This document shows, one piece after another, positions 9,823 to 64,000 of a stretch of DNA of 64,000 nucleotides (positions within the stretch are counted from its first letter, which is position 1; each line of letters starts with the position of its first letter). The position numbers were made by a program, and so were the translations under genes. Source of the DNA: Escherichia phage KEP4. The stretch lies in the sequence record PP047754. One strand, written 5' to 3'. The notes under the pieces were generated by a model, which was given only the letters and a program-made list of their open reading frames with translations, ran no database searches and was not told where the DNA came from.

Positions 9823-9830
9823 TATAAATA
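9823..9830 (+). promoter_or_regulatory. T4-type late promoter TATAAATA
   Basis: Exact TATAAATA 22 bp upstream of ATG 9853, overlapping hairpin taccccc-aaaatt-gggggta. Confidence 0.45.
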
Positions 9831-9852
9831 CCCCCAAAATTGGGGGTATTTT

Positions 9853-10581
9853 ATGAACGCACAAATCTACGATGTCCTTTCCTCTGGTAATGCATTTAGC
9901 AACCCGCTTCCGTCCCTCTCCGGTCCCTCACAGGATTTAATCACCAGTGGTAGTACCAATATACCATTGATAACTGCCAACGCGACTCCGGAGATGCAGG
10001 CGGCTATGGTTGCTGGTGGACTAACACCAGAAAAACTCACAGCAGCCACCACCATGTATAGCGCCGCCAACACGGGGATAACGACACTGAACACATATGG
10101 AGACCAAAGTATCAATGACGCGTATTCTCGCATCGGTACTTCCGTGTCATACAAATCAGGTCTGAAGGGTATATCACGAGAGCCAAACAATTGTGATTTG
10201 ATCAACAAGGCTTTTGGTGTTGTTCAGGATTTAGGACGCCAATGGCTGAATGCTATGGAAGGTGCTCTACAGACCGTAACAAACAAGATATCGGAATTGT
10301 ATGACATGATTATGGAAGGTGCCTCAGAAGGGATGGCAAAACTACAGCAATTGGCTGCTGAAGTAACAGGACATATCAATGAGGCAATAACCGCCGTCAA
10401 TGGAGTTATAAACGATATCACCGATGGGATAGCTGCAGAACTTGCTCATATTGAAAGTATGATCAAAGAATGTCTAAACTTCTCTTTTGCGAATGTTCTT
10501 GGAGAATGGGCTAAAGATCTCTGTGCTGGAGGCGTTATTGATAAAATAGGGACTCCAGAATTAAAAGAGTCCCTGAAATAA
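9853..10581 (+). CDS. hypothetical late protein, 242 aa
   Basis: ORF immediately downstream of a consensus late promoter. Confidence 0.5.
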   Translation: MNAQIYDVLSSGNAFSNPLPSLSGPSQDLITSGSTNIPLITANATPEMQAAMVAGGLTPEKLTAATTMYSAANTGITTLNTYGDQSINDAYSRIGTSVSYKSGLKGISREPNNCDLINKAFGVVQDLGRQWLNAMEGALQTVTNKISELYDMIMEGASEGMAKLQQLAAEVTGHINEAITAVNGVINDITDGIAAELAHIESMIKECLNFSFANVLGEWAKDLCAGGVIDKIGTPELKESLK

Positions 10582-12257: not shown

Positions 12258-13003
12258 TGGTTTCTCTACAGGCTTTGCGCAAACTTAATGACTTTGAAAA
12301 TCGTCATCATACATTTCAGCAATATTCCTTGCCGTTTAAGGAACTGACTTGCGTAACTACCGAAAATGGTCGTCACTATGTTTCCCCCACTGGAGTCAAA
12401 CTAACTTCAGTGACGACCATGTTAGGGCGTACTGGTGACCACACATGGTTAGAAGCCTGGCGGGACAAGTTGGGGCATGAAGCTGCTGATATAGAAACAC
12501 ATCGTTGCGCAGACCGTGGGGAAAAACTTCATTTGGCTTGTGAGTTGTATCTCAAAAACAGACCAATGAAGGAAGTTCTGGAAGCTGCAGGGGAATACGT
12601 GTTTATGTTCAAACAGGTTTTCCCCTACCTTAACAAAATGAGCAAGATATATGCACAAGAGATTCCATTATATAGCGAAGTCCTGGGTCTTGCTGGTCGT
12701 GTTGACCTCATCGGGGTTTACGAAGGAATTCCAAGCATAATCGATTTCAAAACATCTAACACCCTAAAAACTCGAAGCATGATAGAAGATTATAGTATTC
12801 AATTGTGTCTATACTCAGTCATGTTTCAACAAATGTTTAATGTCAAGATAGAGCGTTTAATCAATATTATATCCAACGAAAATGCCCTTGTTCCCACCAT
12901 AATCGAATTCGATCGCAAAGACGTTATTTCTAAAATGTTTGACCGTGTCCGTCTGTATCACAAAATGGACAAAGAACAGAAAGGAATCTGGGCGGATCGC
13001 TAA
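12257..13003 (+). CDS. PD-(D/E)XK family nuclease candidate (RecB/Cas4-like), 248 aa
   Basis: GRVDLIGVY ... IIDFKTS (D...E/D.K) and QLCLY motifs; start ATG overlaps previous stop (TAATG). Confidence 0.45.
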   Translation: MVSLQALRKLNDFENRHHTFQQYSLPFKELTCVTTENGRHYVSPTGVKLTSVTTMLGRTGDHTWLEAWRDKLGHEAADIETHRCADRGEKLHLACELYLKNRPMKEVLEAAGEYVFMFKQVFPYLNKMSKIYAQEIPLYSEVLGLAGRVDLIGVYEGIPSIIDFKTSNTLKTRSMIEDYSIQLCLYSVMFQQMFNVKIERLINIISNENALVPTIIEFDRKDVISKMFDRVRLYHKMDKEQKGIWADR

Positions 13004-13032
13004 ATACTCCATAATATTGGGGGAAATTAGTG

Positions 13033-14532
13033 ATGTCTGAGATCCAAATAGTCAAAGTGAACGAAGTTAGAATGCGGATCCTCGCCGAGGATTATATCCG
13101 TGAAGAACTCAACGATTACTTCAAATTTGAAGATCCTAATTTCCAACCGAATCCGTTCAGTAAATGGGACGGCGTAGTGCGGCTGTTCACAAAGAGTTCT
13201 GGGCTTATCGACATCGGCCTGTTATTTGAGGTGTTCAAATTCTGTAAGATGAACGGTTACACCATCAAATTAGATCCGACCTTAAAATATATTCAAGATA
13301 TTCCGGATGAAGAAATTCATGCGTTCATCGATACATTGAATGCGGTGTACCGAGACGAAAACAAACAATATCAAAAAGCGATTGTCCGTGATTATCAATT
13401 TGATTCTGTTGCCACAGCAATACGCCAAAGCAGATGTGTCCTCGAAGCTGCCACGAGTGCTGGCAAATCCTTTATTTTGTACATCATGGCGCGTTACTAC
13501 AGGCAACGCAGAGATGCCCTCGAAAGTAATCTGAGGACGTTAATTGTTGTACCATCCATTCATTTGGTGACTCAGTTGTATGACAACTTCGAAGAATATA
13601 GCCACGGGACAGAATGGAAGCCATTGATGAACGTCCAGACAATATACGAAGGGGCAACGAAAGAGATTTTCAAACCCATAGTTATTTCAACTTGGCAAGG
13701 TATCCAGAACCAACCCAAAGAGTGGTTCCATCAATTTGGAGATATCGTCGTTGACGAAGTACATACATCAAAATCAGATAAATTGTCTTACATCTTGAAC
13801 AACTGTATTAACGCTGATCAACGTTTGGGAGTAACCGGAACCCTGGCGAATACAAAGGTCGCAGGGTTACAAGTCGTTGCTCACTTTGGCGCATATCATA
13901 AAATTATTACAGCGCGCGATTTAATCGATCTAGGATATGCGGCAGACATCAATGTTAATATGATTGAAGTCATACATCCTATGGCAGACTGTATTGAAAT
14001 GCACGGTGCTGAGTATCAAAAGGAAATAGAATTCCTCATTGCTAACGAACGCCGAAATGAATTGATAGCTCGAATGGCTCTATCTTTGAAAGGGAACGTG
14101 GCAGTCATGTTCGAACGTATCGATGCACACATGATGTTGGTTTATGAAATGCTATCGGCAGTCAAGAAAAACGTATTCGTCATCAACGGGGAAGTCAAGA
14201 CAGAAGTTCGTAAACAGATTCAGGCTGCTATGGAAGAAGGGGAAGATATAACACTGTTGGCATCATATGGTACTATGCAACAGGGCGTATCTATCAAAAA
14301 ACTCCATCATCTGATATTGGCCCATCCCAGCAAATCTTATATCCGTGTTATACAGACATTGGGGCGTTTGATGCGTCAGCATTCCTCTAAGGATGTTGCG
14401 CGAATCTGGGACCTGGTAGACAACCTGCGTTACAACGGTTCCTACAACCATGCTCTCAGGCATTCTCATGAGAGATATAAATTTTATCTTATGGAGCGCC
14501 ACCCTGTTAAAATGAAAAAAGTGGCGCTCTAA
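13033..14532 (+). CDS. uvsW: UvsW-like SF2 DNA/RNA helicase
   Basis: 499 aa; Walker A LEAATSAGKS, DEVH box (VVDEVHT); T4 UvsW size; lies after the capsid region as in T4. Confidence 0.75.
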   Translation: MSEIQIVKVNEVRMRILAEDYIREELNDYFKFEDPNFQPNPFSKWDGVVRLFTKSSGLIDIGLLFEVFKFCKMNGYTIKLDPTLKYIQDIPDEEIHAFIDTLNAVYRDENKQYQKAIVRDYQFDSVATAIRQSRCVLEAATSAGKSFILYIMARYYRQRRDALESNLRTLIVVPSIHLVTQLYDNFEEYSHGTEWKPLMNVQTIYEGATKEIFKPIVISTWQGIQNQPKEWFHQFGDIVVDEVHTSKSDKLSYILNNCINADQRLGVTGTLANTKVAGLQVVAHFGAYHKIITARDLIDLGYAADINVNMIEVIHPMADCIEMHGAEYQKEIEFLIANERRNELIARMALSLKGNVAVMFERIDAHMMLVYEMLSAVKKNVFVINGEVKTEVRKQIQAAMEEGEDITLLASYGTMQQGVSIKKLHHLILAHPSKSYIRVIQTLGRLMRQHSSKDVARIWDLVDNLRYNGSYNHALRHSHERYKFYLMERHPVKMKKVAL

Positions 14533-50049: not shown

Positions 50050-50118
50050 TCGACACTAAATCCTCAAGTTCGACTTTCACTTTAAATACCTTCGCATACA
50101 TTGCGGAGGTATTTTCTT

Positions 50119-50913
50119 ATGGCCATTCTAAAACTTGGCAACCGAGGTTCTGAAGTCAAAGCACTTCAACAAAGCCTCAACAAAATCGGTTTCTCCCTTA
50201 CAGCCGATGGCATATTTGGTAAAGCAACAGAGAATGCAGTCAAATCCGTTCAGGCAGGTGCTGGATTGGTTATTGATGGTATTGCTGGGCCAAAGACCTT
50301 CTATGCTATCCGCAACGCTGGAGACGCTCACCAGGAACATCTGACCGAAGCGGACTTGGTTGACGCAGCACGTGAACTTGGTGTTGAGCTGGCCAGTATG
50401 AAAGCTGTGAATCAGGTAGAATCCCGTGGCACGGGTTTTACCAAAACTGGCAAGATCAAAACTCTGTTTGAGCGCCACATCATGTACAAAAAGGTGACGG
50501 CCAAATTCGGGCAAGCAAGAGCCAATGCTCTGTACCAACTCTACCCAACATTGGTTAACCCCAATTCTGGCGGGTATATCGGCGGAGACGCGGAGTTGGA
50601 ACGCCTTCAGGGTGCAATCGCCCTTGACGAGGACTGCGCTTACGAGAGTGCTTCCTACGGCCTATTCCAGATCATGGGGTTCAACTGCCAAATCTGTGGA
50701 TATCCAAATGCCAAAGAGATGTTCACTGATTTCCTGACTGGTGAACGCGCTCATCTTCTGGCATTTGTCAAGTTCATCAAGGCTGATGCCAATATGTGGA
50801 AAGCCCTGAAGAACAAGAATTGGGCCGAGTTTGCTCGTCGGTACAATGGTCCGGCATATGCGAAAAACCAGTATGATACTAAACTGGCGGCAGCATACAA
50901 GAGTTTCTGCTAA
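50119..50913 (+). CDS. endolysin: N-terminal peptidoglycan-binding domain + C-terminal muramidase-like domain
   Basis: GGAGG RBS; LKLGNRGSEVKALQQSLNKIGF ... DGIFGKATENAVKSVQ (PG_binding_1-like); C-terminal YGLFQIMGFN ... WAEFARRYNGP. Confidence 0.7.
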   Translation: MAILKLGNRGSEVKALQQSLNKIGFSLTADGIFGKATENAVKSVQAGAGLVIDGIAGPKTFYAIRNAGDAHQEHLTEADLVDAARELGVELASMKAVNQVESRGTGFTKTGKIKTLFERHIMYKKVTAKFGQARANALYQLYPTLVNPNSGGYIGGDAELERLQGAIALDEDCAYESASYGLFQIMGFNCQICGYPNAKEMFTDFLTGERAHLLAFVKFIKADANMWKALKNKNWAEFARRYNGPAYAKNQYDTKLAAAYKSFC

Positions 50914-59350: not shown

Positions 59351-60154
59351 TTAAATGAAAATTTCAGTGACACTGTTAAATTTGACTTCATGTTCTTTCC
59401 CACACGAAGGACATTTAATTTTCGTCGCGTAACGGATACGAGGAATCTTTTTAAAGAAATCGTCGGATATATCTTGAACAATCTCAGATTCAATATTTTC
59501 CCCCACCCATTTAACAAATTCATCTTTGACGCGTTGACGTTCTTTAGCAACATCAGGTGCTATGCCAGGCTCTGCCGGATTCTCTACTTTCCAAACCTGA
59601 CCATCATCGTCATACAAACAATCAATAAATGTCGCGATCATTTGCTCCACAGATGATGCTTCGTTGAGCACTGAGGCGTCCGAGAAGGACGGTTGACGCA
59701 TCTTGATGTGATAGCCACCAGGGAGGTCAAATGTTTCCCTGAAGCCTTCTGGGGACACGCATTTCACTTGGTTGAGGGGGATCGGTAAAACAAGTTCTTG
59801 ACCACATTCTTTAAGGCCAGAAACTGGTTCTTCACCTTCATTTGTGTCGGATGGAACTTTGTTGTTACATTTGTATCGTATCTTCATGACCTCGCCGATA
59901 GATATACAGCGCATCTTTAAAAATACTTCTTCAGTAACACCGATTGGCAGTTTACTAAAGGGAACCCCAGCGTCAACACAACTATCAAACAGTTGCTCCA
60001 GCGTCGCCACACGTTCACTCATAGGAGTGTTCGGATCAGCAACCTGAAGTAACATGGTCTGTTGCCCTGCTGTGAAAGCGCGGTATTTAATCACCGTCGG
60101 CCAGAAATCACTTTTGTGTGTTCTCTCAGTTTTGGGCAATGATGGTAAATTCAT
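59351..60154 (-). CDS. late structural protein, probable baseplate component (identity uncertain), 267 aa
   Basis: GGAGA RBS and TATAAATA late promoter upstream on the - strand; co-oriented with gp5 and gp25; C-terminal CPSCGKEHE zinc-ribbon-like motif; ORF-track start 60247 not used. Confidence 0.4.
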   Translation of the reverse strand: MNLPSLPKTERTHKSDFWPTVIKYRAFTAGQQTMLLQVADPNTPMSERVATLEQLFDSCVDAGVPFSKLPIGVTEEVFLKMRCISIGEVMKIRYKCNNKVPSDTNEGEEPVSGLKECGQELVLPIPLNQVKCVSPEGFRETFDLPGGYHIKMRQPSFSDASVLNEASSVEQMIATFIDCLYDDDGQVWKVENPAEPGIAPDVAKERQRVKDEFVKWVGENIESEIVQDISDDFFKKIPRIRYATKIKCPSCGKEHEVKFNSVTEIFI

Positions 60155-60182
60155 AATGTATCTCCACGGTATATTGTAACCA

Positions 60183-60190
60183 TATTTATA
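60183..60190 (-). promoter_or_regulatory. T4-type late promoter TATAAATA (reverse strand)
   Basis: Forward tatttata = TATAAATA on the - strand, about 29 bp upstream of reverse ATG 60154. Confidence 0.45.
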
Positions 60191-60203
60191 ATGAGGACCG
60201 AAA

Positions 60204-60728
60204 ATGCACGCGTTCTGTTTCAGTAAAGTTGGAGAACAACTTACCATTAATTATCCGGATACAAATACGGATTTCTTTGTATTGCTAACGGATTTCGCAA
60301 ATAAATTGGGGATCAAGAATATCGCCATGACTGTGGACGATATGAAATTTGGTCGTCTGGGTGTAAAAGATTTATTGAATTACGGATTCAACGTAATCAT
60401 CGTCGATCAGACATACAGCCCAATTGACGAGGAAGATGTTATTCCAGTTTGGGTTCAACGAGACATAAACACTCTGGATAAACATTATCCCGATTGTGTC
60501 ATCATTGGCGAATTAATACTATATTTTCATAAACGTCGTCGGCTTGAATCAATTAAAAGTTATTTTCAAGATAGCGATGACGGATATAAAATGGATGTCC
60601 TTACGAGCGGTTGGGTTGTGAAGAATACCACAGGCAATGCCGACCGAATTACTTCCCGTCTTTATGAATATGTTAAAGAACGGGATTATGAACTGGAGAA
60701 CAATAATGCCAAACGTAGAACGCGCTGA
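60204..60728 (+). CDS. hypothetical protein, 174 aa
   Basis: ATG after GAGGA RBS; divergent from the baseplate gene. Confidence 0.45.
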   Translation: MHAFCFSKVGEQLTINYPDTNTDFFVLLTDFANKLGIKNIAMTVDDMKFGRLGVKDLLNYGFNVIIVDQTYSPIDEEDVIPVWVQRDINTLDKHYPDCVIIGELILYFHKRRRLESIKSYFQDSDDGYKMDVLTSGWVVKNTTGNADRITSRLYEYVKERDYELENNNAKRRTR

Positions 60729-61191
60729 TATTCAGCAGGTACAAGACGTCATCCTTCAACGCCTCCGCGCTGTGATCACAAATGAAAAGGGAGAAATTGC
60801 GCCAGGGTTTGAAGGCGCATTCGACAGTTTCGTTGCCGATGACCAGGGGAACCCCGTTGTACAAACGATCGCTGGCATGATTATGCTGAATAGCGAATTT
60901 ATGGCTGATGGTAAAATCCATTATTCTCCCAATCTCAGTGTTGACGGAGAATCTTTGGCTTCCGAAGTGGTTGATTTAACGGTTGCCGTTGGTGAGTTGG
61001 GTTATGTTTTGATGGTTTGCACCGCGCATTATGTGGACGCCAACGGCCATGTGTCATATGGTGATGAAGCGCGGGGAATCAAACGTCATGTAGATACTGC
61101 GGCGGTTCTGCAGCAGATCCGTCAGATGCAAGACAATATGGATTCCAAACCCCGCCTGATTTTGCCAGATAGTAAAATCGTGACAAGATAA
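60706..61191 (+). CDS. hypothetical protein, 161 aa
   Basis: ATG after GGAGAA; overlaps previous gene by 23 nt. Confidence 0.4.
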   Translation: MPNVERADIQQVQDVILQRLRAVITNEKGEIAPGFEGAFDSFVADDQGNPVVQTIAGMIMLNSEFMADGKIHYSPNLSVDGESLASEVVDLTVAVGELGYVLMVCTAHYVDANGHVSYGDEARGIKRHVDTAAVLQQIRQMQDNMDSKPRLILPDSKIVTR

Positions 61192-61240
61192 TCCGGTCTA
61201 AATACCCATAACACAATGAAACTTCGTTATGGGTATTTTT

Positions 61241-61840
61241 ATGAAATTTTGCGGAATCGACTATTCTTATGGCTGTCCTGCCATGTGCTTCTGGGATGAT
61301 AAAGATCCTTTGGATTTTGACCATCTTCATTTCTATGCGCATCATACTGTAGAAAAACATTGTCGTCAGGTACGGCATAACATCCTCATTTTACGCCAGC
61401 CGAAATATGAATCCCCAGAAGAACGCTTCTACAATATCTCCAAATGGGCCGAAGCTGTTCTTCTAACCGAGAAGCCTGATTTCATCACCCTTGAGGGGTA
61501 CGCAATGGGCAACTCGAAGAATTCCAATAACATATGCCAGACTGCTGAAAATACATCTTTATTGAAGCAAGCAATGCGCCGGAATAATATGGAATTCCAG
61601 ATCGTCACTCCTTCTTTCGTTAAAAAGCATTTCTGTGGTAAAGGAAACGCCGATAAATTGGTAATGATCGATCATTTCGAGAAGCTGTTCAACGTTAAGA
61701 TGCGTGGTATAATGGACATGTTGGACGTGAAGGATCCAAAGCCTATCGATGATCTTGTAGACTCATTCGCAAACATGGTGTCTGGACCTTACTTCATAGA
61801 AAATTATCCCGATTTCAATAGAGGTGTAAGAAATGATTAA
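61241..61840 (+). CDS. RuvC-like Holliday junction resolvase candidate, 199 aa
   Basis: N-terminal FCGIDYS (cf. RuvC ILGIDPG catalytic Asp) and downstream FITLEGYAMG acidic motif; by eye only. Confidence 0.35.
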   Translation: MKFCGIDYSYGCPAMCFWDDKDPLDFDHLHFYAHHTVEKHCRQVRHNILILRQPKYESPEERFYNISKWAEAVLLTEKPDFITLEGYAMGNSKNSNNICQTAENTSLLKQAMRRNNMEFQIVTPSFVKKHFCGKGNADKLVMIDHFEKLFNVKMRGIMDMLDVKDPKPIDDLVDSFANMVSGPYFIENYPDFNRGVRND

Positions 61841-62129
61841 TTACTGGCTGTTGGCAGACATACTGCTTTTCGCCTTGCTGTTGATAACGGCATTTATTTG
61901 GGTTAAGGGATTTCTGACATTCCTACACTCGTTGAGTGCCATGATATCTTTCTATGCTGTGTCCCCCCATAGTGACGTCAATGTACGAGCAGCAAATCAA
62001 TCTGACATGTTGGCTGAATACGTCATGATGCGTGATAAAGCAACCAGGATCGTCCTGTTTTCTACACTGGCGGGGGCGGTTATTATATTCATACAACACG
62101 TCTTGGAGGCAACTCATGCCGTTTTATGA
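61833..62129 (+). CDS. small membrane protein, two predicted TM helices, 98 aa
   Basis: GAGGTG RBS; hydrophobic segments WLLADILLFALLLITAFIWV and IVLFSTLAGAVIIFI. Confidence 0.4.
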   Translation: MINYWLLADILLFALLLITAFIWVKGFLTFLHSLSAMISFYAVSPHSDVNVRAANQSDMLAEYVMMRDKATRIVLFSTLAGAVIIFIQHVLEATHAVL

Positions 62130-62361
62130 TTATGCCTGTACAGGTTGTGGTAATTCTTTCAGTACCAGAAGGTCTTGTGCTGAACGCCATACGCCTGAAT
62201 TAGATCCATGTTCTGAATGTGGCGGTGAAATCAAAATGGTCATTGGAGCACCAAAGATCGTATCTGGTGTCCGTGGCCCACAATCCGCACCTGATGGCTT
62301 CAAAGACGTATTGCGTCATATTAAGAAGCAGTCTGGGAAGGGGAATACAATCGATGTCTGA
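62116..62361 (+). CDS. FmdB-type zinc-ribbon protein, 81 aa
   Basis: GGAGG RBS; MPFYDYACTGCGNSF ... CSECGG has the CxxC...CxxC zinc-ribbon pattern. Confidence 0.45.
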   Translation: MPFYDYACTGCGNSFSTRRSCAERHTPELDPCSECGGEIKMVIGAPKIVSGVRGPQSAPDGFKDVLRHIKKQSGKGNTIDV

Positions 62362-62596
62362 TCAACAAATAGCACAAGTGCTCACACCAGATTCTTTTTC
62401 TGAATTGGTGTTGATGAGAGCAAGCCAACGCAAGGAATCAATCCTTGAAACGATGGCCAGTGTTTGTGAAGAGTATGACATCGAAGAAGCAAAGGTCAAA
62501 AAATTGATCACGCCTCCTCTTCTGTCAAGGCTAACAGCTGAATGTTCTGATGCTCGGTTGTTGAAGGGTGAATTGAAATCTAAAAAACTCATTTAA
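62354..62596 (+). CDS. hypothetical protein, 80 aa
   Basis: ATG after AAGGGGA; overlaps previous stop. Confidence 0.35.
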   Translation: MSDQQIAQVLTPDSFSELVLMRASQRKESILETMASVCEEYDIEEAKVKKLITPPLLSRLTAECSDARLLKGELKSKKLI

Positions 62597-62605
62597 GGTT
62601 GTAAC

Positions 62606-62845
62606 ATGAGCAAAGAGCAAATCTATAAAATGTTGAAGGCGCAAGAGTATCTGCCAGGTTCTATCCGCTGGCGTCATGGTAGCCTCAATGAACATGCTGA
62701 TGATATGGATCGTGTACGTTACACGACGCCGGAAGGTAAATCCTATGTCATCGAATACCATACATTCTTGGAAGGACACAAAACCTTCTCAGATGTGTAC
62801 GACATTATTGAAATAGACCCAGCAAAACAAATGATTGCGGGTTAA
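62606..62845 (+). CDS. hypothetical protein, 79 aa
   Basis: ORF with ATG start. Confidence 0.4.
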   Translation: MSKEQIYKMLKAQEYLPGSIRWRHGSLNEHADDMDRVRYTTPEGKSYVIEYHTFLEGHKTFSDVYDIIEIDPAKQMIAG

Positions 62846-62941
62846 CTCAATAGCAAAACGCAGTATAATTACACCGTCGGAATAATTGACAAATACATTT
62901 ACAGAATAGCCCGAAGGGGCGGATTATAGAGGAATATTAAA

Positions 62942-63973
62942 ATGGGTAATTTATTTGATCGTCTTAAACAATCTCGTGGCCAACAAGCCGAAGCTATGCA
63001 ACAGCGACTCGCTCAGCAAGGCCAGCGTGTTGGTGGCGGTCGTGACCCACGCATCTGGAAGTGGACCTGGAATGACAAGGGTACTTCTGAAAACATCATT
63101 CGTTTCCTGCCGATCCCTTTGGTGGACATGAAGGCTCAAGAAGAAGGCACTATCCCTGAAGATGCTGTGTTAACTCCGTGTGCCATGATCATGAAACACG
63201 CATTCCAGGGCGCTGGCGGCTGGTATATCGAAAACTCTCCGCAGACTTTCGGTAACGATGATCCTGTTCGTGACCACGATCGTCCTCTGTGGGCACAACA
63301 GAAAGAAACGAATGATGAAAAGCTGAAAACAGTTCTCAAAAAACGTCTGCCGGACACCAAATACTACGCCAACATCCTGGTGATCAAAGATGGCAACAAT
63401 CCGGAAAACAACGGCAAGGTCTTCTTGCTTGAGTTCGGTAATGCCGTCAAGAAAATCCTGGATTCGGCTCAGAATCCTAAGTTCTCAACTGACCCTAAAT
63501 TCGACCCGTTCGATATGTGGGAAGGCGCGAACCTGATTCTGAACCTCTTTGGCGAAGAGAAAGAGTTCGGCAACTGGAAAGGTCTGGTGGCCAACTTCAC
63601 CAATGTGAAGTGGGATACTCCGGCACCTTTGGGGACAGACGAATACATTGAAGAGATCTGGGAAAAAGAACACAGTCTGTTTGAGTTCTTTAATCCGGCC
63701 AACTTCAAATCGTACGAAGATCTGGAAAAACGTTTGCGCAAAGTTCTGGCCATCCCTGATAATCAGCCTCTGGTTGAAGGTGGTGCTTCTACTATGGCAC
63801 ATGCGCCTACCCAGTCTCAGGAACCCCAGCGCCCAACAGCGCAGGAAAGTCTGAACCAACAACAATCTCAGCCTTCTAATGCACAGCAATCTGTTCCAGC
63901 CAATAATGGTGGTGCCGATGCGAAACAGACGGCTTCCATTGATGAGTTCGAGCAGTTCCTGAAGCAAGACTAA
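62942..63973 (+). CDS. single-stranded DNA-binding protein gp32
   Basis: IIRFLP, GWYIEN, GKVFLLEFG, DMWEGANLILNL, FEFFNPANFKSYEDLEKRLRK and acidic C-terminal tail parallel T4 gp32. Confidence 0.85.
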   Translation: MGNLFDRLKQSRGQQAEAMQQRLAQQGQRVGGGRDPRIWKWTWNDKGTSENIIRFLPIPLVDMKAQEEGTIPEDAVLTPCAMIMKHAFQGAGGWYIENSPQTFGNDDPVRDHDRPLWAQQKETNDEKLKTVLKKRLPDTKYYANILVIKDGNNPENNGKVFLLEFGNAVKKILDSAQNPKFSTDPKFDPFDMWEGANLILNLFGEEKEFGNWKGLVANFTNVKWDTPAPLGTDEYIEEIWEKEHSLFEFFNPANFKSYEDLEKRLRKVLAIPDNQPLVEGGASTMAHAPTQSQEPQRPTAQESLNQQQSQPSNAQQSVPANNGGADAKQTASIDEFEQFLKQD

Positions 63974-63980
63974 TTTCGCT

Positions 63981-64000
63981 AAAGCCCCTTCGGGGGCTTT
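63981..64000 (+). terminator. stem-loop after gp32 (runs to window edge)
   Basis: aaagcccc-ttcg-ggggcttt hairpin; T-run not visible. Confidence 0.4.

What the first reader, a model, noticed from the sequence alone, without database searches (positions are those of the whole stretch)
61241..61840. RuvC-like resolvase candidate instead of T4-type endonuclease VII
The 199-aa ORF begins FCGIDYS and has a downstream FITLEGYAMG acidic motif, reminiscent of RuvC/YqgF-fold resolvases (ILGIDPG ... E). T4 resolves branched DNA with gp49 endo VII; a RuvC-like enzyme would be a different solution. The call is by eye and weak.
Basis: inference. Interest (0 to 1): 0.4.

Follow-up and report, generated by a model that had tools for sequence, protein, structure and literature searches.

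The report
Phage RuvC-like Holliday junction resolvase
The ORF is a real RuvC-type DNA junction-cutting enzyme of a Vi01-like Salmonella phage that fills the role T4 gives to endonuclease VII, but it is already annotated this way in many public phage genomes, so the finding is correct and ordinary.

Summary
Window 61241-61840 (+) encodes a 199-aa protein that starts MKFCGIDYS and contains FITLEGYAMG. The interpretation also holds. The protein matches PHROG_159 "RuvC-like Holliday junction resolvase" (E 7e-54) and just passes Pfam RuvC. Its AlphaFold model (pLDDT 88.5) finds only RuvC structures as its top 12 PDB matches. Across 146 diverse homologues the only invariant residues are D7, E85, D171 and D174 (the RuvC tetrad), plus K128, K139 and G135.

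The window is a Kuttervirus (Ackermannviridae) phage. Neither the window nor the complete genome of a 98%-identical relative holds a T4 gp49/endo VII homologue, so "RuvC instead of endo VII" is supported. None of this is new: about 170 public records carry the near-identical (>=99%) protein, and many label it a RuvC-like resolvase. A complementary RuvC/endo VII pattern in phages is also published.

One extra detail emerged. The gene has a conserved T4-type late-promoter core (TCTAAATA here, TATAAATA in Dickeya and Erwinia relatives). That core sits in the 5' arm of a conserved 13-bp hairpin whose 3' arm ends 2 nt before the ATG. T4 genes 49, e, soc and I-TevI are reported to use the same design.

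No biochemical work on this clade was found. Interest is low.

The parts
61241..61840 (+). Coding sequence of the 199-aa RuvC-superfamily Holliday junction resolvase, stop codon included. Catalytic codons: D7 61259-61261, E85 61493-61495, D171 61751-61753, D174 61760-61762. Conserved lysines: K128 and K139.
61197..61204 (+). TCTAAATA, a variant of the T4-type late promoter core. The orthologous site reads TATAAATA in Dickeya phage Kamild and Erwinia phage Bue1.
   Evidence: Conserved in 7 Ackermannviridae relatives. TAAATA is the hexamer most often found 10-45 nt upstream of ORF starts in the window (10/29 against a 3.3% background), and CTAAATAC does so in 5/5 cases. Genes with the motif include scaffold, baseplate hub, gp5-like hub/lysozyme and endolysin. 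That it acts as a promoter is inferred.
61200..61238 (+). Leader hairpin: 5' arm AAATACCCATAAC (61200-61212), 13-nt loop, 3' arm GTTATGGGTATTT (61226-61238). The 3' arm holds the G-rich SD-like run at 61231-61233 and the non-conserved ATG at 61229. It ends 2 nt before the ATG at 61241.
   Evidence: RNA fold -15.3 to -15.7 kcal/mol, z -3.5 to -4.1. The same hairpin is predicted in all 7 orthologous leaders (z -2.3 to -7.0), with base changes on both arms that keep pairing. This architecture is enriched at TAAATA sites: 3/29 against 10/4000 random positions.
61833..62129 (+). Downstream 98-aa ORF (PHROG_4696; annotated as a membrane protein in several records). Its ATG overlaps the resolvase stop (ATGATTAA), so the two are probably co-transcribed and translationally coupled. 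Context only, not part of the enzyme.
   Evidence: annotations

Best explanation
The ORF encodes a stand-alone RuvC-superfamily Holliday junction resolvase of a Vi01-like (Kuttervirus) phage. Shown: it has the RNase H-like RuvC fold and an invariant D7/E85/D171/D174 carboxylate tetrad, which in RuvC binds two divalent metal ions, plus two invariant lysines that align with E. coli K107 and K118. Inferred by analogy: it works as a homodimer that binds four-way and other branched DNA made by the phage's T4-like recombination-dependent replication (homologues of UvsX, UvsY, UvsW, gp46/47 and gp32 are present). It would make paired nicks to debranch the concatemer so the terminase can package it, which is the job endonuclease VII (gp49) does in T4. 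This phage lineage has no gp49. It also has no RuvA/RuvB, so a UvsW-like helicase would supply branch migration. Inferred for expression: it is gated to late infection. A gp55/gp33-type late promoter core lies inside the 5' arm of a leader hairpin that hides the ribosome-binding region in read-through transcripts and may also terminate them. Late transcripts starting about 6 nt after the core (near 61210) would lack that arm and be translatable.
For: Family and fold: PHROG_159 7e-54. Pfam RuvC above its gathering score, and 60 of 146 homologues hit Pfam RuvC with only one other family hit, by a single member. Family profile against PDB: RuvC at 5.3e-8. The AF2 model has pLDDT 88.5 and pTM 0.87. 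The top 12 Foldseek PDB hits are RuvC at E about 1e-7 and TM (target) 0.58-0.72, followed by other RuvC-type resolvases. The viral library returns many phage RuvC-like resolvases.

Active site: the only invariant columns in 146 sequences are D7, E85, K128, G135, K139, D171 and D174. Residue-level alignments place E85 on the catalytic Glu, VKKxFTGKGNAxK on the RuvC VK..G.G.A.K motif, and D171/D174 on D138/D141.

No alternative resolvase: the best gp49 phmmer E-value is 2.8 over 3,884 six-frame ORFs of the window plus the complete SS9 genome. The annotated HNH/GIY-YIG/other nucleases are homing-type or PD-(D/E)XK, not Endonuclease_7. The SS9 annotation lists no RusA, endo I or RuvAB. Salmonella is not among the top ten genera for gp49 matches, although 163 Salmonella records carry the RuvC-like gene.

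Context: the gene keeps a conserved position next to gp33-like and gp32-like genes across the Ackermannviridae genera examined.

Regulation. The same logic is documented for T4 genes 49, e, soc and I-TevI (PMC3014915). The role of endo VII in debranching before packaging is from PMC10956419.
Against: No biochemical or genetic data for this clade turned up in the searchable literature. Similarity to cellular RuvC is distant: 13-17% identity in structural alignments, and the NCBIfam RuvC equivalog scores 24.5 bits against a cut-off of 163. The Pfam pass is marginal for this particular sequence. Dimerisation and junction specificity were not tested. The model has an extra beta-hairpin (residues 43-52) and a disordered loop (89-100) that cellular RuvC lacks. 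A PD-(D/E)XK nuclease elsewhere in the genome could share debranching duties. The promoter and hairpin roles rest on sequence conservation and the T4 analogy. No transcript mapping exists, and the hairpin followed by a T-run could simply be a terminator for the upstream genes.
Confidence: 0.82

Rival explanations
1. It is a RuvC-fold nuclease with a job other than junction resolution. Candidates are host-DNA degradation, an anti-defence nuclease, or a remnant of a mobile element (a DEDD transposase of the IS110/IS621 type, or a TnpB/IsrB-type RuvC domain).
For: RuvC-like folds occur in IS621 recombinase and IsrB, and both appear in the Foldseek list (ranks 26-44). No biochemistry exists for this clade.
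Against: Those hits are far weaker (E 3e-3 to 3e-2, TM 0.2-0.38) than the hits to stand-alone resolvases. The protein is a single about 190-aa domain with no transposase or guide-RNA-binding module. It is a syntenic core gene beside gp32/gp33 in every Ackermannviridae genome examined, not a mobile insertion. The RuvC-specific lysines and the G-x-G-x-A-x-K motif are conserved.
Confidence: 0.08
2. It is a YqgF/RuvX-like or RNase H-like enzyme that acts on RNA or RNA-DNA hybrids, for example in primer removal, rather than on four-way junctions.
For: RuvX appears in the Foldseek list at rank 50. The fold class is shared.
Against: The RuvX match has E 0.05, against 1e-7 for RuvC. No Pfam or NCBIfam YqgF hit was found. 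The genome already has a separate RNase H (Pfam RNase_H 8e-14). The tetrad with a C-terminal DxxD on a helix is the RuvC arrangement.
Confidence: 0.03
3. The enzyme is a resolvase, but the upstream hairpin is only an intrinsic terminator for the preceding genes. The TAAATA motif would then be incidental, and expression would not be gated by RBS occlusion.
For: The stem is followed by a T-run (GGGTATTTTT) and preceded by an A-run, like a bidirectional terminator. The SD-like element is weak in this leader.
Against: The stem always starts exactly at the AAATA of the motif and ends 1-4 nt before an ATG, at three genes in the window. This is 40-fold more often than at random positions. The motif reads as canonical TATAAATA in two genera. 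At the endolysin gene a clear GGAGG lies inside the 3' arm, as in T4 gene e (PMC3014915). The two roles are also not mutually exclusive.
Confidence: 0.25

Closest known systems
Bacterial RuvC (E. coli 1HJR, T. thermophilus 4EP4/4LD0/6S16, P. aeruginosa 6LW3, D. radiodurans 7W8D/7XHJ; Pfam PF02075)
   Same: Same fold; these are the top 12 Foldseek hits. Same D-E-D-D tetrad and the same two lysines in the VK..G.G.A.K motif. Similar size, single domain.
   Different: Only 13-17% identity, and far below the NCBIfam equivalog cut-off. There is an extra beta-hairpin (residues 43-52), a disordered GNSKNSNN loop (89-100) after the catalytic Glu, and a C-terminal tail. No RuvA/RuvB partners are annotated in the phage. 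Sequence preference is unknown.
Lactococcus phage bIL67 RuvC (PDB 4KTW) and other phage RuvC-like resolvases (PHROG_159, PHROG_1770)
   Same: Stand-alone phage-encoded RuvC-type resolvases that work without RuvAB. It is a clear member of PHROG_159 (7e-54). bIL67 RuvC is a structural match (E 3.4e-4, TM 0.55/0.67).
   Different: bIL67 RuvC belongs to a different sequence cluster: PHROG_1770 scores only 2e-5. bIL67 is a small siphovirus. This enzyme sits in a 158-kb myovirus with T4-like recombination machinery.
T4 endonuclease VII (gp49; Pfam PF02945)
   Same: The predicted biological role is the same: debranching replication and recombination intermediates before packaging. The regulatory design also appears the same, with a late promoter inside a leader hairpin that hides the translation start (PMC3014915).
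   Different: Unrelated fold (a zinc-binding beta-beta-alpha-Me/HNH-type enzyme) with no sequence similarity. This is functional replacement, not homology.
Poxvirus A22 / fowlpox resolvase (6P7B), yeast Cce1/Ydc2 (1KCF), plant MOC1 (6KVO, 6JRG)
   Same: RuvC-fold resolvases that act without RuvAB. All are significant structural matches.
   Different: These are weaker matches than bacterial RuvC (E 6e-5 to 1e-3). They come from eukaryotic viral or organellar lineages and carry different insertions.

Membership tests
RuvC superfamily (Pfam PF02075) | RNase H-like alpha/beta fold with RuvC topology | tested here: met
   The AF2 model has pLDDT 88.5 and pTM 0.87. The top 12 Foldseek PDB hits are all RuvC, at E 1e-7 to 8e-6 and TM (target) 0.58-0.72.
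RuvC superfamily (Pfam PF02075) | Catalytic acidic tetrad (E. coli D7, E66, D138, D141) | tested here: met
   D7, E85, D171 and D174 are invariant in 146 homologues. E85, D171 and D174 align with the E. coli and P. aeruginosa catalytic residues. D7 sits in the GID motif at the end of strand 1.
RuvC superfamily (Pfam PF02075) | Conserved basic residues (E. coli K107, K118) in the VK..G.G.A.K motif | tested here: met
   K128 and K139 are invariant and align with K107 and K118.
RuvC superfamily (Pfam PF02075) | Score at or above Pfam's gathering threshold | tested here: met
   22.7 bits against a cut-off of 22.2, which is marginal. 60 of 146 family members match at E <= 1e-3, best 2.9e-10; the only other family hit is HeH, by one member.
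Cellular RuvC orthologue (NCBIfam NF000711 / TIGR00228 equivalogs; RuvABC resolvasome) | Equivalog-level sequence score and partnership with RuvA/RuvB | tested here: not met
   24.5 bits against a cut-off of 163, and 11.4 against 100.65. No RuvA or RuvB is annotated in the complete related genome. It is therefore a distant phage clade of the superfamily, not an orthologue.
RuvC-type resolvases in general | Homodimer that makes paired symmetric nicks in four-way junctions; metal dependence | not testable with these tools
   Needs biochemistry or multimer modelling. Only a monomer prediction was available.
PHROG_159 (phage RuvC-like Holliday junction resolvase) | Full-length profile match | tested here: met
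   E 7e-54, 184 bits, residues 1-197.
T4 endonuclease VII (PF02945) | Sequence similarity to gp49 / Endonuclease_7 profile | tested here: not met
   No Pfam hit for this ORF. A gp49 phmmer search against all ORFs of the window and the related genome gave a best E of 2.8.
YqgF/RuvX | Profile or structural match better than to RuvC | tested here: not met
   No Pfam or NCBIfam YqgF hit. Foldseek to RuvX (7ESS) gives E 0.05 at rank 50.

The most novel reading that the evidence does not exclude
This Ackermannviridae/PhiW-14-type clade of RuvC-like resolvases may have been tuned to phage biology in two ways that have not been described. (a) Its gene appears to have converged on the late-promoter-inside-an-RBS-occluding-hairpin gate that T4 uses for its non-homologous resolvase gene 49, and the endolysin gene mirrors T4 gene e in the same way. 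(b) The enzyme must cut DNA in which a large share of thymidines are hypermodified (5-NeOmdU in ViI, alpha-putrescinylthymidine in PhiW-14; PMC5889632, PMC6449724). Its cleavage preference may therefore differ from the T-rich (A/T)TT|(G/C) consensus of cellular RuvC. That could be what the clade-specific loop (89-100) and hairpin (43-52) are for.
Probability: 0.2. Interest if true: 0.45.

Novelty: already known. Interest (0 to 1): 0.15.

Why it matters
The result confirms that Vi01-like phages, which are widely used in Salmonella and E. coli O157 biocontrol, pair T4-like recombination-dependent replication with a RuvC-type debranching nuclease instead of endonuclease VII. This is one more example of non-orthologous replacement of a core phage function. 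It changes no current view: the annotation is already public, and the complementary RuvC/endo VII pattern is published for large phages (PMC7824862). Two modest additions come out of the work. The first is a corrected start codon, 61241 rather than the 61229 used in RefSeq. The second is that the resolvase and endolysin genes appear to use the same late-promoter-in-hairpin gate as their T4 functional counterparts, which cappable-seq and reporter fusions could test.

Tried and rejected
- A single-sequence phmmer search against PDB found only noise. The link to RuvC needed family profiles and structure.
It did align the K/GxGxAxK/DxxD motifs correctly. I use it only as corroboration of the PDB alignments.
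- An exact TATAAATA search gave 3 sites, which is not enriched. The motif used in this phage is a looser (C/T/A)TAAATA(C).
- The sigma-70 and terminator consensus scans were uninformative. They missed the leader hairpin because its loop is 13 nt.
- RNAalifold on the MAFFT alignment showed little covariation, because indels misaligned the arms. Folding each leader on its own showed the conserved hairpin.
- I asked whether the roughly 264-aa homologues are fusions with the downstream membrane ORF. They are not.
- I considered the HNH, GIY-YIG and T5orf172 nucleases of the related genome as cryptic endo VII candidates. They match homing-endonuclease families instead.
- Literature searches for experimental work on this clade, or for an explicit statement that RuvC replaces gp49 in Ackermannviridae, found only annotation tables.
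- The Bacteriophage T4 genome review (PMC150520) is not held.

Full report
**Observation.** The window has an open reading frame on the + strand that ends with TAA at 61838-61840. From the ATG at 61241 it encodes 199 aa beginning MKFCGIDYS. FITLEGYAMG is residues 81-90. An in-frame ATG at 61229 would add four residues, and RefSeq uses it for Kuttervirus SS9. That codon is missing in Erwinia phage Bue1 and out of frame in Dickeya phage Kamild, while the ATG at 61241 is conserved in all seven relatives aligned.

**Source of the window.** Window 60000-64000 is 98.5% identical to Salmonella phages of the genus Kuttervirus (Ackermannviridae, Vi01-like), and 271 phage records match. The gene lies between two conserved hypothetical ORFs and a small membrane ORF. 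After those come an FmdB-type zinc-ribbon gene, a gp33-like late-transcription co-activator and a gp32-like ssDNA-binding protein. This order is kept in Taipeivirus, Limestonevirus, Agtrevirus and the Erwinia phage Bue1 lineage.

**Identity of the protein.**
- It matches PHROG_159 "RuvC-like Holliday junction resolvase" over its full length (E 7e-54). It just passes Pfam RuvC (22.7 bits against a cut-off of 22.2).
- A single-sequence search of PDB sequences found nothing.
- A 22-sequence family profile hit RuvC of D. radiodurans and P. aeruginosa at E about 0.007.
- An exhaustive profile search of 1.84 billion representative proteins found 4,264 clusters at E <= 1e-3 and 251 at E <= 1e-30, so the family is large.
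- A 146-sequence profile built from those hits matched D. radiodurans RuvC at 5.3e-8. It also matched the T. thermophilus, E. coli and P. aeruginosa enzymes.
- Sixty of the 146 members hit Pfam RuvC on their own. The only other family hit was HeH, by a single member.
- The AlphaFold2 model is confident (pLDDT 88.5, pTM 0.87).
- Its 12 best Foldseek matches in the PDB are all bacterial RuvC (E 1e-7 to 8e-6, TM normalised to target 0.58-0.72). Next come Ydc2/Cce1, Lactococcus phage bIL67 RuvC, plant MOC1 and fowlpox resolvase. RuvX/YqgF appears only at rank 50 with E 0.05.
- The viral structure library returns dozens of phage proteins named RuvC-like resolvase.

**Active site.** Among the 146 homologues (24-68% identical to the query) the only invariant columns are D7, E85, K128, G135, K139, D171 and D174. 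Residue-level alignments to solved RuvC proteins give three correspondences:
- E85 falls on the catalytic glutamate.
- VKKxFTGKGNAxK falls on the RuvC VK..G.G.A.K motif, which holds E. coli K107 and K118.
- D171 and D174 fall on the DxxD pair, E. coli D138 and D141.

D7 sits in the GID motif at the end of strand 1, as in RuvC. The refutation criterion "catalytic residues not conserved" therefore fails, and the enzyme is predicted to be active. I could not measure distances in the model, so 3D clustering of the tetrad is inferred from the fold match.

**Limits of membership.** The protein belongs to the RuvC superfamily but is not an orthologue of cellular RuvC. NCBIfam's RuvC equivalog models score 24.5 and 11.4 bits against cut-offs of 163 and 100.65. 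Structural-alignment identity is 13-17%. The complete related genome annotates no RuvA or RuvB. Relative to RuvC, the model has an extra beta-hairpin (residues 43-52), a disordered GNSKNSNN loop (89-100) after the catalytic Glu, and a short C-terminal tail.

**"Instead of endo VII".**
- I recalled the T4 gp49 sequence from memory. It proved exact, with 100% identity to T4-like records.
- phmmer with all filters off, run against every six-frame ORF of at least 30 aa in the window and in the complete genome of Kuttervirus SS9 (3,884 ORFs), gave a best E of 2.8, which is noise. The same database returned the RuvC-like ORF at 6e-143 as a positive control.
- The annotated HNH, GIY-YIG, T5orf172 and "endonuclease" genes of SS9 match homing-endonuclease families. 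A further nuclease is PD-(D/E)XK. None matches Endonuclease_7.
- The SS9 annotation lists no RusA, T7-endo-I-type or other resolvase.
- At population level, 163 Salmonella phage records hold the RuvC-like gene. Salmonella is not among the ten best-represented genera for gp49 matches, the tenth having 78 records.
- The unseen part of this particular genome cannot be checked directly, but the inference is strong.

**Proposed mechanism (inferred).** The phage has T4-like recombination-dependent replication genes: UvsX-, UvsY- and UvsW-like proteins, gp46/47-like nuclease and gp32. These produce branched concatemers. In T4, endonuclease VII debranches them before packaging (PMC10956419). Here a dimeric, two-metal RuvC-type nuclease would do that job, probably with the UvsW-like helicase supplying branch migration in place of RuvAB.

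**Regulation (inferred, with sequence support).**
- A TCTAAATA motif lies at 61197-61204, 36 nt upstream of the ATG. The orthologous site is conserved in seven relatives. It reads TATAAATA, the canonical T4 late promoter, in the Dickeya and Erwinia phages.
- In the window, TAAATA is the hexamer most strongly tied to ORF starts (10 of 29 occurrences lie 10-45 nt upstream, against a 3.3% background). CTAAATAC does so in 5 of 5 cases.
- Genes carrying the motif include the scaffold, two baseplate hub proteins and the endolysin.
- The AAATA of the motif begins a perfect 13-bp stem: 61200-61212 pairs with 61226-61238. The 3' arm holds the G-rich SD-like run and ends 2 nt before the ATG (-15.3 kcal/mol, z about -4).
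- All seven orthologous leaders fold the same way (z -2.3 to -7.0). Changes on both arms preserve pairing: ATAAC/GTTAT becomes ATATC/GATAT, CCCA/TGGG becomes CCCG/CGGG, and the Shigella phage has an inserted G:C pair.
- The same design (stem starting at AAATA, ending 1-4 nt before an ATG) occurs at 9825 and at 50083, the endolysin gene, where GGAGG lies in the 3' arm. That is 3 of 29 TAAATA sites against 10 of 4,000 random positions.
- T4 genes e, soc, 49 and I-TevI are documented to use this logic. Read-through early transcripts hide the ribosome-binding site in a helix. Late transcripts that start inside the 5' strand are translated (PMC3014915).
- The non-homologous resolvase and the endolysin of this phage thus appear to be gated like their T4 functional counterparts. 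The hairpin followed by a T-run may also act as a terminator, and the two roles are compatible. No transcript data were available.

**Novelty.** About 170 records hold the near-identical (>=99%) protein. Many label it "RuvC-like Holliday junction resolvase", "crossover junction endodeoxyribonuclease RuvC" or similar. A Vi01-like phage paper lists it the same way (PMC10892097). Iyer and colleagues describe RuvC-like resolvases in large phages and their nearly complementary distribution with endo VII (PMC7824862). I found no biochemical study of this clade. The finding is correct but already known, and interest is low. The leader design and the start-codon correction are small additions. One speculation remains open: the enzyme may have adapted to the hypermodified thymidines of ViI-type DNA (PMC5889632, PMC6449724), given that a homologue is also present in PhiW-14.

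Noticed in passing
window 50083-50121 (+), upstream of the endolysin ORF 50119-50913: TTTAAATACC begins a 13-bp hairpin (AAATACCTTCGCA / TGCGGAGGTATTT, -18 kcal/mol, z -6.2). Its 3' arm contains the GGAGG Shine-Dalgarno and ends 4 nt before the endolysin ATG. This is the same late-promoter-in-hairpin design described for T4 lysozyme gene e.
   Followed up: partly
window 9823-9855 (+), upstream of ORF 9853-10581 (PHROG_2114/289): TATAAATACCCCCAAAATTGGGGGTATTTTATG: a canonical TATAAATA lies in the 5' arm of a hairpin (-16.6 to -17.8 kcal/mol) that ends 1 nt before the ATG. This is the third instance of the design.
   Followed up: partly
window 59351-60247 (-), baseplate hub gene: The longest ORF, and the RefSeq annotation of the orthologue, start at 60247. 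A canonical TATAAATA on the - strand at 60190-60183 lies inside that 5' end, 28 nt upstream of an internal ATG at 60154 (MNLPSLPK...). The real start is probably 60154 (267 aa).
   Followed up: partly
window 61229 versus 61241: RefSeq and GenBank Kuttervirus records start the resolvase at the upstream ATG (203 aa). That ATG lies inside the 3' arm of the leader hairpin and is not conserved in Dickeya or Erwinia relatives. The conserved start is 61241 (199 aa).
   Followed up: yes
window 61833-61840: The resolvase stop codon and the ATG of the next ORF (98 aa, PHROG_4696, a putative membrane protein) overlap as ATGATTAA, which suggests translational coupling. The role of this small membrane protein next to a DNA enzyme is unknown.
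   Followed up: no
L007 880-1449 (Dickeya phage Kamild): A putative homing endonuclease gene is inserted directly upstream of the resolvase gene in Limestonevirus. The late-promoter motif and hairpin next to the resolvase are still retained.
   Followed up: no
P0016, P0017, P0019, P0020 (homologues of 260-264 aa; e.g. Serratia phage 2050H1): Some close homologues (about 70% identity) carry an extra C-terminal segment of about 70 aa. It is unrelated to the downstream membrane ORF of this window and begins with Met. It may be a fused small ORF or an added domain.
   Followed up: partly
window 13001-13008 (+), upstream of the UvsW-like helicase ORF 13033-14532: CTAAATAC lies 26 nt upstream of a 499-aa DNA helicase gene (PHROG_16/9690). 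T4 uvsW is a late gene (my own knowledge), so the likely branch-migration partner of the resolvase may also be expressed late.
   Followed up: no
L004 25397-26143 (SS9 gp167; the orthologue should lie in the window near 11-12 kb): A PD-(D/E)XK nuclease (Pfam PDDEXK_1, PHROG_298 'exonuclease') sits beside the UvsY-like gene. Nucleases of this fold have been proposed as alternative junction resolvases in some large phages (PMC7824862).
   Followed up: no
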